Shown here: positions 43,628 to 43,759 of the stretch, piece after piece
Layout of the letters: each line of letters begins with the position of its first letter
Numbering within the stretch: the stretch's first letter is position 1
DNA from: a phage
Assembly: GCA_012490745.1 (NCBI GenBank)
Contig: GCA_012490745.1_3925.1
DNA: 64,000 nt
Reading direction: 5' to 3' (one strand)
Notes under the pieces: generated by a model
What the model saw: the letters and a program-made list of their open reading frames with translations, nothing else
Told to the model about the DNA's origin: nothing
The model's database searches: none
Translations under genes and position numbers: made by a program

Positions 43628-43759
43628 CAGAAGACCGTTTACAGCAAAACTTAAACAATCTATTTCTCCGGTAAAGAAAAGGCGAAGGTTCGATTCCTTC
43701 ACTCGGCAGATGTCGAGTTGGTGTAATGGTAGCACTTAAGATGATAAACAACGGTCTGG
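43628..43759 (+). ncRNA. structured element copy 4 enclosing a tRNA-like module
   Basis: CAGAAGACCGTTTACAGCAAAA ... AACGGTCTGG (perfect 8-bp end pairing); interior has T-arm GAAGG-TTCGATT-CCTTC, then ACTCGGC and GTCGAGT (complementary, acceptor-like) and a D-arm-like TGGTGTAATGGTAGCAC. Confidence 0.45.

What the first reader, a model, noticed from the sequence alone, without database searches (positions are those of the whole stretch)
43628..43759. tRNA-like module with permuted order inside structured element copy 4
Inside the element closed by CAGAAGACCGTT / AACGGTCTGG there is a canonical T-arm (GAAGG-TTCGATT-CCTTC), immediately followed by ACTCGGC, then after 4 nt its complement GTCGAGT and a D-arm-like TGGTGTAATGGTAGCAC. 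So 3'-acceptor-like sequence precedes 5'-acceptor-like sequence; no anticodon arm is evident. This is either a permuted or degenerate tRNA gene remnant, or a tRNA-mimicking domain within a larger RNA.
Basis: seen in the sequence. Interest (0 to 1): 0.65.

Follow-up and report, generated by a model that had tools for sequence, protein, structure and literature searches.

The report
Phage Y-RNA-like RNA with tRNA mimic
The "permuted tRNA" is real: it is the tRNA-shaped middle of one of four small structured RNAs that a FelixO1-like phage encodes beside its Ro60-like protein gene, and this RNA family recurs in very different phages and closely resembles the unexplained Class I RNAs of Dictyostelium.

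Summary
At 43625-43762 (+), an outer stem encloses a T arm, a loop-closed acceptor-like stem and a D arm, in permuted order.

The window is a Felixounavirus. The element is one of four paralogs inside the tRNA array. They start 330 nt downstream of a 471-aa DUF2828/DUF7788 protein whose predicted fold matches Ro60.

All four share AAG, a 7-bp covarying stem, UWA-CAGCAA, a variable insert, the 3' stem strand, then G. Only copy 4 carries the tRNA mimic.

The same RNA family sits beside homologs of this gene, on the gene's strand, in phages of Aeromonas, Yersinia, Campylobacter, Listeria, Staphylococcus, Enterococcus, Bacillus, Fusobacterium and Mycobacterium. A model built without any E. coli-phage sequence recovers window copies 1 and 2. 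In 75 uncultivated viral loci it gives 40 hits, all on the gene strand.

Best reading: Y-RNA-like partners of a Ro60-like protein. Copy 4 has the YrlA architecture but a different recognition module, and Rfam YrlA does not match it.

The stem-plus-motif module matches Dictyostelium Class I RNAs feature for feature, at sub-threshold Rfam scores. Two Aeromonas phages carry the circularly permuted version, opened at the acceptor end. No expression or binding data exist.

The parts
41203..42618 (+). Gene for a 471-aa Ro60-like protein (Pfam DUF2828 + DUF7788); the presumed protein partner of the RNAs
   Evidence: ORF. Pfam DUF7788 at 2.5e-43 and DUF2828 at 3.2e-29. AlphaFold model with pLDDT 89.7. 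The top 11 Foldseek PDB hits are all Ro60: 9l5y, 9kop, 9nfa, 2i91, 1yvp, 2nvo, with E 6e-8 to 2e-6 and TM 0.48-0.66. The vWA/MIDAS-type residues D279, S281 and S283 are invariant. Relatives annotate it as 'RNA-binding protein', 'vWFA protein' or 'Ro-like RNA binding protein'.
42728..42757 (+). Promoter-like site (TTGACA-18-TAAAGT with TG) ahead of the first tRNA; a second one lies at 42637-42665. The next strong + strand site is at 44158-44186.
   Evidence: Consensus scan. No + strand terminator-like site lies between 42757 and 44158. Copies 1-4 and nine tRNAs (ARAGORN) therefore probably form one transcription unit. This is inference.
42950..43028 (+). Copy 1, short form: outer helix TGAC/GTCA, AGA opposite G, 7-bp stem AGACCAA/TTGGTCT, TTA-CAGCAA, variable loop
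   Evidence: The leave-clade-out model R3 scores 30.7 bits, E 5e-4. Rfam Dicty_Class_I_RNA scores 19.7 bits.
43117..43182 (+). Copy 2, short form: TTGC/GCAA outer helix, stem AGACCGT/ACGGTCT, ATT-CAGCAA, A-rich 3' loop segment
   Evidence: R3 scores 32.2 bits, E 2.3e-4. Rfam Dicty_Class_I_RNA scores 24.0 bits.
43533..43617 (+). Copy 3, short form: GAGC/GCTC outer helix, stem AGACCAA/TTGGTCT, ATT-CAGCAA, internal hairpin
   Evidence: The all-phage model R1 scores 27.5 bits. Under R3, only the Moogle ortholog scores weakly (19.3 bits).
43625..43762 (+). Copy 4, long form (the finding): TTAC/GTAA outer helix, AGA opposite G, stem AGACCGT(T)/(A)ACGGTCT, TTA-CAGCAA (CAGCAA at 43642-43647), then the tRNA-like domain
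   Evidence: MFE fold. Conserved at 93-100% identity in about 240 Felixounavirus records, and at 78-87% in Suspvirus and Mooglevirus.
43663..43679 (+). V arm (anticodon-arm look-alike): TTTCT-CCGGTAA-AGAAA
   Evidence: Rfam tRNA alignment. The stem covaries to TTTCA/TGAGA with a 5-nt loop in Moogle and Maleficent. The loop is 6 nt in momo.
43684..43700 (+). T arm: GAAGG-TTCGATT-CCTTC
   Evidence: All 5 pairs are 100% paired across 9 homologs, and 3 pairs show compensatory changes.
43701..43718 (+). Acceptor-like stem closed by a loop: ACTCGGC-AGAT-GTCGAGT
   Evidence: Six of 7 pairs show compensatory changes. Examples are ACACGTT/GGCGTGT in SUSP2, ACCCTTC/GAAGGGT in Moogle, TAGCGGC/GTCGCTA in a mycobacteriophage and TGCCACC/GGTGGTA in an Enterococcus phage.
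43719..43735 (+). U8-G9 equivalents plus the D arm: TG, GTGT-AATGGTA-GCAC (GG in the loop)
   Evidence: The 4 pairs are 100% paired, and 2 show compensatory changes.

Best explanation
Copy 4 is a roughly 130-nt non-coding RNA of the Y-RNA type. It is one of four paralogous RNAs that partner the phage's Ro60-like ring protein, encoded at 41203-42618.

Proposed mechanism:
1. The four RNAs are transcribed with the first block of the tRNA array and cut out by the tRNA-processing machinery (inferred).
2. Their shared module is the protein-binding site (inferred). It consists of AAG...CUG closing an A-G mismatch, a 7-bp stem of free sequence, and the single-stranded UWA-CAGCAA on the 5' side. The analogy is Ro60 gripping the 5' strand and stem of Y RNAs.
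3. The variable insert is an adaptor (inferred). In copy 4 it is a tRNA-shaped domain: V arm, T arm, loop-closed acceptor stem and D arm. It would tether the ring to proteins that recognise tRNA shape, as YrlA does for Rsr and PNPase. Copies 1-3 would present other adaptors.
4. The particle would serve RNA surveillance, repair or decay, or counter-defence during infection (inferred).

Shown here: the sequence anatomy, covariation, gene linkage across distant phages, and the protein fold. No binding, processing or functional data were available.
For: - Host genome: the window is a Felixounavirus (97.8% identity to phage EcoM2).
- Protein: its model matches only Ro60 structures over its full length. 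Homologs are annotated 'Ro-like RNA binding protein' in cluster L mycobacteriophages (33% identity, E 1e-77).
- Shared anatomy: four co-oriented copies lie 330-1010 nt downstream of the gene. When 41 elements from 10 phage groups are anchored on CAGCAA, all have a 7-bp stem at positions -10 to -4. All 7 pairs show compensatory changes, and a near-invariant G follows the 3' strand.
- Gene linkage: elements lie directly beside the homologous gene, on its strand, in phages of Aeromonas (8 copies), Yersinia, Mycobacterium, Campylobacter, Listeria, Staphylococcus, Enterococcus, Bacillus and Fusobacterium. Some of these loci have no tRNA nearby (L006 has 0 tRNAs).
- Independent detection: model R3, built only from non-enterobacterial phage elements, finds window copies 2 and 1 (E 2.3e-4 and 5e-4). 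Nothing else in the 64 kb scores below E = 3.
- Survey: in 75 IMG/VR loci chosen only by the protein, R3 gives 40 hits at E <= 0.05. All 40 are on the gene strand, in 33 loci, mostly within 700 nt of the gene.
- One long copy per phage: Ounavirinae, Mycobacterium, Enterococcus (at least two) and Bacillus phages each have a long copy with the same permuted tRNA-like insert, supported by covariation. Rfam YrlA matches the Enterococcus ones at 35.7-47.8 bits.
- RNA, not DNA: G-U pairs in the helices fit an RNA read from the + strand.
- Function: in Felixounavirus Bas63, the PhageMaP preprint found the orthologous gene (gp130) to be Ro60-like and needed against the Ppl defence. It guessed that Y RNAs hide in the tRNA region (PMC11482910).
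- Context: RNA-repair genes (RtcB, RNA ligases, CCA-adding enzyme) neighbour the gene in Listeria, Aeromonas and CBB phages.
Against: - There is no transcript, end-mapping or binding evidence for any copy.
- Rfam YrlA does not match copy 4 at any threshold tried, and the YrlA/Ro motif GNCGAA is absent.
- The protein is not a Pfam TROVE member. It shares only 11-16% identity with Ro60 structures, and a sequence search of the PDB finds nothing.
- The fold energy of copy 4 is only marginally better than shuffles (z = -1.84).
- R3 does not recover copies 3 and 4 of the window itself.
- The elements used for stem statistics were picked by a script that required pairing. The 99.6% pairing is therefore partly built in; only the covariation and the independent searches count.
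- In several phages the elements lie in the 5' leader of the gene. One Vibrio element overlaps the ribosome-binding site. A cis-regulatory role is therefore also possible.
Confidence: 0.72

Rival explanations
1. The elements are cis-acting operators. The Ro60-like protein binds them in its own mRNA or in the tRNA precursor to control translation or processing, and they are not stable trans-acting RNAs.
For: In phages of Aeromonas, Campylobacter, Listeria, Fusobacterium and Vibrio, elements lie immediately upstream of the gene. In Vibrio phage V05, the 3' stem strand covers the Shine-Dalgarno region and start codon (L007 4960-5011).
Against: In the window, and in the Staphylococcus and Mycobacterium phages, the elements lie downstream of the gene. 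In the window they follow a hairpin and new promoter-like sites. Multiple tandem copies with different inserts, one of them a tRNA mimic, fit adaptor RNAs better than operators. The two roles are not mutually exclusive.
Confidence: 0.12
2. They are processing punctuation, or spacers, of the phage tRNA array. In this view they are structured spacers, including a decayed tRNA, that guide RNase P, RNase E or RNase Z and have no link to the upstream protein.
For: All four copies sit between tRNA genes in one apparent transcription unit. tRNA arrays neighbour the gene in many phages.
Against: The elements follow the gene, not the tRNAs. They occur beside it where no tRNA is near: Mycobacterium phage L006, Fusobacterium phage L018 and Staphylococcus phage SEP9. 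In the window, most inter-tRNA gaps lack them. All 40 IMG/VR hits cluster at gene ends.
Confidence: 0.08
3. Copy 4 is a circularly permuted or decaying tRNA gene (read as tRNA-Thr GGU). After cutting and ligation it would yield a decoding tRNA, or it is simply a pseudogene.
For: Some GenBank records annotate a 131-nt tRNA-Thr(GGT) here (REP6). The T and D arms are canonical. Rfam tRNA gives 22 bits.
Against: ARAGORN finds nothing, and 22 bits is below Rfam's 29-bit threshold. The 'anticodon' loop varies (CCGGUAA, CUGGUAA, CUAUAAA, GGGUA, and 6 nt in momo), so neither GGU nor a 7-nt loop is kept. The acceptor loop varies from 3 to 11 nt. The surrounding stem and motif are conserved in non-tRNA paralogs. 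Covariation argues against a pseudogene.
Confidence: 0.03

Closest known systems
YrlA / bacterial Y RNAs bound by Rsr (Ro60) (Chen et al. 2014, PMC4201824; Rfam RF02553)
   Same: It is encoded next to, and co-oriented with, a Ro60-type ring protein. The 5' and 3' ends pair in a stem. The interior is a tRNA mimic with the same order: V arm, T arm, loop-closed acceptor-like stem, D arm. It is accompanied by shorter paralogs without the mimic, like YrlB. Rfam YrlA weakly matches the equivalent RNAs of an Enterococcus phage (35.7-47.8 bits).
   Different: The GNCGAA(N)G motif is absent; the conserved module is AAG-stem-UWA-CAGCAA...G instead. Rfam YrlA gives no match to copy 4. The partner protein belongs to Pfam DUF2828/DUF7788 rather than TROVE. 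There are four copies, embedded in a tRNA array.
Dictyostelium Class I RNAs (Aspegren 2004; Avesson 2011; Kjellin et al. 2021, PMC7919456; Rfam RF01414)
   Same: A short covarying stem joins the ends (6 bp in Dictyostelium, 7 bp here). The stem is closed by conserved AAG...CUG(U). A single-stranded motif follows the 5' stem strand directly: CCUUACAGCAA in Dictyostelium, UUACAGCAA here, with the same invariant C, C, A, A. The remainder is variable, with an A-rich stretch before the 3' strand. Length is about 50-70 nt, with many paralogs and rare long members. RF01414 gives sub-threshold hits exactly on phage elements: 19.7-24.0 bits in the window and 22.9-29.8 bits in Aeromonas, Listeria, Staphylococcus and Fusobacterium phages.
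   Different: All scores are below the 41.5-bit gathering threshold. The distance from the closing G to CAGCAA is one nucleotide shorter in phages. The phage elements lack the eukaryotic DUSE promoter. Class I RNAs were reported as unique to Dictyostelia, and their named direct binder is the RRM protein Rnp1A. Whether Dictyostelium has a DUF2828 protein could not be checked here.
Thermus phage phiLo Ro60 with Yrl1/Yrl2 (PMC12135203; PDB 9KOP, 9L5Y)
   Same: It is a phage-encoded Ro60-type ring with small structured RNAs encoded next to it. It is the best structural match of the window protein. It was shown to bind its RNAs and host PNPase.
   Different: phiLo Yrls were defined by a CGAA motif and have no tRNA-like domain. 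Protein identity is about 15%.
Long 'tRNAs' of Aeromonas phages Aeh1 (annotated tRNA-Val, 122 nt) and 4_4572 (117 nt)
   Same: They hold the same modules in the same cyclic order as copy 4. These include the 7-bp stem at -10 to -4 from C(A/C)GCAA and the following G. They lie in phages with the homologous gene.
   Different: They are circularly permuted. The acceptor stem is open (Aeh1 even encodes CCA), and the stem-motif module is closed by a 3-5-nt loop in the anticodon-arm position. Rfam tRNA scores 49.2 bits there.

Membership tests
YrlA (Rfam RF02553; Chen 2014) | Encoded within about 4 kb of, and on the same strand as, a Ro60 ortholog | tested here: met
   Copy 4 starts 1007 nt after the stop codon of the Ro60-like gene, on the same strand. 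The protein is Ro60-like by fold only, not by Pfam TROVE.
YrlA (Rfam RF02553; Chen 2014) | tRNA-like domain: V arm, T arm, closed acceptor-like stem-loop and D arm between paired 5' and 3' ends | tested here: met
   Direct reading, MFE fold, and covariation across 9 homologs.
YrlA (Rfam RF02553; Chen 2014) | Conserved 5' motif GNCGAA(N0-1)G, the putative Rsr-binding site | tested here: not met
   The 5' strand reads UUACAGAAGACCGUUUACAGCAA and holds no GNCGAA. The conserved motif is CAGCAA.
YrlA (Rfam RF02553; Chen 2014) | Covariance-model score at or above the gathering threshold (69 bits) | tested here: not met
   There is no YrlA match on 43615-43775 even at E <= 10. The only YrlA hit in the array is a tandem tRNA-His/Phe artefact at 17.3 bits.
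YrlA (Rfam RF02553; Chen 2014) | Bound by Rsr/Ro60; modified by TruB and DusA; RNase P substrate | not testable with these tools
   These need immunoprecipitation, modification mapping and cleavage assays.
Dictyostelium Class I RNA (Rfam RF01414; Kjellin 2021) | Short stem joining the 5' and 3' ends, conserved in pairing but not in sequence | tested here: met
   A 7-bp stem with compensatory changes at all 7 pairs across 38 elements. The four window copies use AGACCAA and AGACCGT, plus covarying outer helices.
Dictyostelium Class I RNA (Rfam RF01414; Kjellin 2021) | 11-nt motif CCUUACAGCAA directly after the 5' stem strand, with U3, C6, C9, A10 and A11 near-invariant | tested here: inconclusive
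   Copies 1 and 4 have UUACAGCAA (9 of 11). Copies 2 and 3 have AUUCAGCAA. CAGCAA is invariant in all 41 elements. The spacing to the closing G is one nucleotide shorter than in the DdR sequences.
Dictyostelium Class I RNA (Rfam RF01414; Kjellin 2021) | Conserved termini AAG...CUGU | tested here: inconclusive
   AAG and CUG(G/U) flank the stem in the DNA of the window and the Aeromonas phage. Real RNA ends are unknown. Gram-positive phages have AAAG...CUUG, and mycobacteriophages UG...CAG.
Dictyostelium Class I RNA (Rfam RF01414; Kjellin 2021) | Covariance-model score at or above the gathering threshold (41.5 bits) | tested here: not met
   Window copies score 24.0, 19.7 and 12.8 bits. The best phage element scores 29.8 bits. 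Kjellin et al. used a CM score >= 25 plus a stem as their first-round criterion, which four Aeromonas-phage elements would pass.
Dictyostelium Class I RNA (Rfam RF01414; Kjellin 2021) | DUSE promoter about 60 nt upstream; binding by Rnp1A/CIBP | not testable with these tools
   These are eukaryote-specific features, and there are no protein-binding data.
tRNA (Rfam RF00005 / ARAGORN) | Cloverleaf in standard order with free acceptor ends and a 7-nt anticodon loop | tested here: not met
   ARAGORN finds none. Rfam scores 22 bits against a 29-bit threshold, covering only model positions 7-64. The acceptor is closed by a loop, and the loop of the anticodon-like hairpin varies from 5 to 7 nt.
Ro60 / TROVE + vWA proteins (for the neighbouring gene) | HEAT-repeat ring plus vWA domain with MIDAS residues | tested here: met
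   Full-length Foldseek matches go to Ro60 only. The secondary structure is a helical repeat followed by an alpha/beta domain. D279, S281 and S283 are invariant. Pfam assigns DUF2828 + DUF7788, not TROVE.

The most novel reading that the evidence does not exclude
The stem-plus-CAGCAA RNAs would be the cognate RNA ligands of the whole DUF2828 branch of Ro60-like proteins, and Dictyostelium Class I RNAs would be the eukaryotic members of the same RNA family. Class I RNAs are abundant, tied to development, of unknown mechanism, and reported as unique to social amoebas. If so, Class I RNAs would work as Y-RNA-like adaptors of a DUF2828 protein. A candidate is DDB_G0281243, the protein of unknown function that was pulled down with Class I RNA DdR-21. 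Plants and other eukaryotes with DUF2828 genes may then hold undiscovered partners too. The tRNA-mimic versions, in both circular permutations, would show how this particle is coupled to tRNA-recognising machinery.
Probability: 0.35. Interest if true: 0.9.

Novelty: new variant of a known kind. Interest (0 to 1): 0.8.

Why it matters
- It pins down the RNA partners that the PhageMaP preprint (PMC11482910) only guessed at for the Ro60-like anti-defence gene of Felixounavirus phages. They are four unannotated inter-tRNA elements, not the annotated tRNAs.
- It defines a covarying RNA family linked to DUF2828 proteins across phages of Gram-negative, Gram-positive and actinobacterial hosts. This family is absent from Rfam, and I found no description of it in the searchable literature.
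- It shows that Y-RNA-type tRNA mimicry has been coupled to a second, different protein-recognition module, and that it exists in two circular permutations.
- It offers a concrete, testable hypothesis for the long-unexplained Dictyostelium Class I RNAs, and for the function of DUF2828 proteins in eukaryotes.
- It also corrects annotation. Some records call this region a 131-nt tRNA-Thr, and others place minus-strand hypothetical ORFs across it.

Tried and rejected
- ARAGORN and Rfam at gathering thresholds find nothing at the element.
- Rfam YrlA at E <= 10 on the element alone gives no match.
- A sequence search of the protein against the PDB finds nothing useful. The fold search was needed instead.
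- A MAFFT alignment of full-length short elements (A3) misaligned the 3' stems by 4-5 columns. I replaced it with CAGCAA-anchored, loop-trimmed pseudo-sequences (A4).
- The leave-clade-out model built from trimmed sequences (R2) penalised real loop lengths. It scored the window copies at only 10-17 bits. I rebuilt it from real full-length hits (R3).
- My stem-plus-CAGCAA script alone is not specific. About three chance matches in the correct register occur elsewhere in the window, so I used covariance-model E-values and strand/position statistics instead.
- The AlphaFold-database fold search, intended to look for Dictyostelium or plant homologs, was unavailable.
- Searches of the Kjellin supplements for DUF2828, for conserved peptide motifs and for DDB_G0281243 found nothing usable.
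- The Avesson 2011 paper, the Sim 2020 review and the Chen 2014 supplement tables are not held.
- I considered and rejected a hairpin-ribozyme loop A reading of AGAA.../...GUC, because the internal loop does not match. I also rejected a DNA-level repeat or mobile element: the copies are strand-specific, use G-U pairs, and keep only the stem and motif.
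Full report
**1. The observation**

- Outer stem: AGACCGT(T) at 43632-43639 pairs with (A)ACGGTCT at 43750-57.
- T arm: GAAGG-TTCGATT-CCTTC at 43684-43700.
- Acceptor-like stem: ACTCGGC-AGAT-GTCGAGT at 43701-43718.
- TG, then the D arm GTGT-AATGGTA-GCAC at 43721-43735.

Rfam's tRNA model aligns it as the anticodon arm (22 bits, below the 29-bit threshold). ARAGORN tRNAs in 42784-47733 but none here.

The minimum-free-energy fold of 43625-43763 reproduces the outer stem enclosing a four-armed cloverleaf. The energy is only marginally better than shuffles (z = -1.84). AGAAGACC...GGTCTGG occurs four times on the + strand, at 42954, 43121, 43537 and 43629. 'Copy 4' is therefore accurate.

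**2. Context**

The window is a Felixounavirus: 97.8% identity to Escherichia phage EcoM2, with 242 records covering most of the tRNA region. The four copies lie between tRNAs in the first block of the array. Promoter-like sites at 42637 and 42728 precede them, and the next strong one is at 44158.

Directly upstream, at 41203-42618, is a 471-aa ORF with Pfam DUF7788 and DUF2828. Relatives annotate it as 'RNA-binding protein', 'vWFA protein' or 'DUF2828'. An AlphaFold model (pLDDT 89.7) matches only Ro60 structures over its whole length. These include phage phiLo Ro60, Xenopus and human Ro60, and Deinococcus Rsr, with E 6e-8 to 2e-6 and TM up to 0.66.

The PhageMaP preprint found the Bas63 ortholog (gp130) to be Ro60-like and needed against the Ppl defence. 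It speculated that some 'tRNA genes' downstream are Y RNAs (PMC11482910).

**3. Anatomy of the four copies**

Each copy reads as follows:
- an outer 4-bp helix that covaries between copies (TGAC/GTCA, TTGC/GCAA, GAGC/GCTC, TTAC/GTAA);
- AGA opposite a single G;
- a 7-bp stem (AGACCAA or AGACCGT);
- TTA or ATT, then the invariant CAGCAA;
- a variable insert that ends A-rich;
- the 3' stem strand.

Copies 1-3 are 66-85 nt. Only copy 4 (138 nt) carries the tRNA-like insert. All four are kept in Felixounavirus, Suspvirus and Mooglevirus.

**4. The same RNA family follows the gene in distant phages**

tblastn finds the protein in 710 phage records. Hosts include Vibrio, Aeromonas, Campylobacter, Listeria, Staphylococcus, Enterococcus, Bacillus, Fusobacterium and Mycobacterium. 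In Mycobacterium phages it is annotated 'Ro-like RNA binding protein'.

A simple stem-plus-CAGCAA scan of the flanks found co-oriented elements right beside the gene:

| Phage | Elements found |
|---|---|
| Aeromonas 4_4572 | 8 |
| Yersinia P778 | 2 |
| Mycobacterium Rumpelstiltskin | 3 |
| Campylobacter CP81 | 2 |
| Listeria LP-083-2 | 3 |
| Staphylococcus SEP9 | 3 |
| Enterococcus EFGrKN | at least 3 |
| Bacillus Thrax4 | at least 4 |
| Fusobacterium Fnu1 | 1 |

Anchored on CAGCAA, all 41 elements place a 7-bp stem at -10 to -4, followed by a near-invariant G. Every pair shows several compensatory types: covariation score 1.13, against 0.29 in shuffles and 0.08-0.15 when slid. Pairing itself was a selection criterion, so only the covariation is informative here.

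Independent tests:
- Model R3 was built only from real elements of Aeromonas, Mycobacterium, Listeria, Staphylococcus, Bacillus and Fusobacterium phages. It finds window copy 2 (32.2 bits, E 2.3e-4) and copy 1 (30.7 bits, E 5e-4). It also finds their orthologs in SUSP2 and Moogle (E down to 3.6e-6). Nothing else in the window scores below E = 3.
- In 75 uncultivated viral loci chosen only for encoding a 38-47% identical protein, R3 gives 40 hits at E <= 0.05. All 40 are on the gene's strand, in 33 loci, mostly within a few hundred bases of the gene ends.

The link is to the gene rather than to tRNAs. The mycobacteriophage locus has no tRNA and the Fusobacterium locus has none annotated. The Staphylococcus locus has one annotated tRNA about 2 kb from its elements.

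**5. The tRNA-like insert**

Long elements with the same permuted order occur in Ounavirinae, Mycobacterium, Enterococcus and Bacillus phages. The order is V hairpin, T arm, loop-closed acceptor-like stem, D arm.

Across nine of them the three helices are 97.9% paired (43-53% when slid). Eleven of 16 pairs show compensatory changes, and 0 of 500 shuffles reach the observed score. The acceptor-like stem is ACUCGGC/GUCGAGU in the window, ACACGUU/GGCGUGU in SUSP2 and ACCCUUC/GAAGGGU in Moogle.

The V hairpin keeps its stem, but its loop varies in length and sequence (5, 6 or 7 nt). It cannot be a decoding anticodon loop. G-U pairs show that the structure is read from the + strand as RNA.

This is the architecture Chen et al. 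described for YrlA: V arm, T arm, AS stem-loop and D arm between paired ends (PMC4201824).

**6. Relation to YrlA**

The architecture and the Ro60-type neighbour are shared. Rfam YrlA weakly matches the Enterococcus-phage long elements (35.7 and 47.8 bits, against a 69-bit threshold). However, copy 4 gets no YrlA match even at E <= 10. The YrlA motif GNCGAA(N)G is also absent, replaced by AAG-stem-UWA-CAGCAA. The protein is DUF2828/DUF7788, not Pfam TROVE.

I therefore file it as working like YrlA, but not as a member of that family.

**7. Resemblance to Dictyostelium Class I RNAs**

The only Rfam family that repeatedly lands on the elements is Dicty_Class_I_RNA (RF01414). All scores are below the 41.5-bit threshold.

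| Source | Scores (bits) |
|---|---|
| Window copies 2, 1, 4 | 24.0, 19.7, 12.8 |
| Aeromonas phage (four elements) | 25.7-29.8 |
| Fusobacterium phage | 24.9 |
| Listeria phage | 23.1 |
| Staphylococcus phage | 22.9 |

Kjellin et al. define Class I RNAs by the following features (PMC7919456; sequences):
- length 42-65 nt;
- a roughly 6-bp terminal stem conserved in pairing only;
- conserved ends AAG...CUGU;
- the motif CCUUACAGCAA next to the 5' stem strand;
- a variable remainder.

The phage elements share each of these, and also an A-rich tract before the 3' strand. The one difference is a one-nucleotide shorter spacing. That paper reports no Class I RNA outside Dictyostelia.

Its preprint version names the four proteins pulled down with DdR-21: GuaB, NdkC, CIBP/Rnp1A and DDB_G0281243. 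The last is of unknown function. I could not check whether Dictyostelium encodes a DUF2828 protein. Plant homologs do exist.

This remains a well-founded lead, not a demonstrated homology.

**8. Circular permutation**

Aeromonas phages 4_4572 and Aeh1 hold 117- and 122-nt 'tRNAs'. The first scores 49.2 bits with Rfam tRNA, with 52 nt in place of the anticodon loop. The second is annotated tRNA-Val.

In both, the 7-bp stem at -10 to -4 from CAGCAA (CCGCAA in Aeh1) has its partner strand upstream. The partner is followed by the conserved G, and the stem is closed by a 3-5-nt loop. Rotating the sequence gives the module order of copy 4.

The same composite therefore exists opened at the stem-motif end (window) and opened at the acceptor end (Aeromonas phages).

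**9. Conclusion**

The finding is real. It is best explained as the tRNA-mimic adaptor domain of a Y-RNA-like RNA that partners a phage Ro60-like protein. Expression, processing, binding and function are all inferred. I found no description of this RNA family in the searchable literature, and it is not in Rfam 15.

Noticed in passing
window 43761-43904: Directly after copy 4 lies a 22-nt inverted repeat, 95% complementary: AATTATCTTTGTAGATAAGTTA / TAGCTTATCTACAAAGATAATT. It encloses 100 nt and ends just before tRNA-Lys. This is another candidate structured RNA of unknown kind.
   Followed up: partly
window 44391-44469: Rfam calls a tRNA here (31.7 bits) that ARAGORN misses. Relatives annotate tRNA-Arg(TCT) at the equivalent place.
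   Followed up: partly
window 44084-44390: Downstream of a strong promoter-like site (44158-44186) there are weak, sub-threshold matches to tmRNA_permuted (28.8 bits) and tmRNA (15.4 bits). A similar tmRNA hit occurs in Yersinia phage P778 at L004 8009-8149.
   Followed up: no
window 44618-44692 and 44964-45063: A weak tRNA-Sec-like match (23 bits) and a long hairpin (spurious MIR473 match, 32.7 bits) lie in gaps of the tRNA array. They may be further non-tRNA structured elements.
   Followed up: no
window 43581-43856 (- strand): A 91-aa minus-strand ORF overlaps copies 3 and 4. Some relatives annotate it as a hypothetical protein (AYO145A gp131, wV8 gp048). Given the conserved RNA structures on the + strand, it is probably spurious.
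   Followed up: partly
L003 1556-1686 (Escherichia phage REP6): The GenBank record annotates a 131-nt tRNA-Thr(GGT) running from the end of copy 3 into copy 4's T arm. ASO1B also carries a tRNA-Thr annotation under the match. The annotation pipeline misreads the tRNA mimic.
   Followed up: yes
L009 3429-3980 (Listeria phage LP-083-2): A ROOL RNA match (87.4 bits, threshold 99.1, E 3.7e-16) lies between the tRNAs and the three stem-CAGCAA elements, about 1 kb upstream of the DUF2828 gene.
   Followed up: no
L016 2850-3300 and 1500-1600 (Enterococcus phage EFGrKN): Three tandem elements are each preceded by the same roughly 45-nt box (GGTTTTG.CATA...GCCGGAACAT). One uses CAGCGA instead of CAGCAA. 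A further permuted tRNA-like RNA at 1500-1600 (YrlA 30.1 bits) has a different outer stem, with CCGAAUGG on its 3' side.
   Followed up: partly
L007 4960-5011 (Vibrio phage V05): A compact 40-nt element overlaps the Shine-Dalgarno region and start codon of the DUF2828 gene, which suggests autoregulation in that phage.
   Followed up: no
L009, L005, L019 gene neighbourhoods: RNA-repair or tRNA-maintenance genes sit near the DUF2828 gene in several phages. They include RtcB-like ligase, RNA ligases, tRNA nucleotidyltransferase and ribosome hibernation factor. This recalls the bacterial Rsr-YrlA-RtcBA operon.
   Followed up: no
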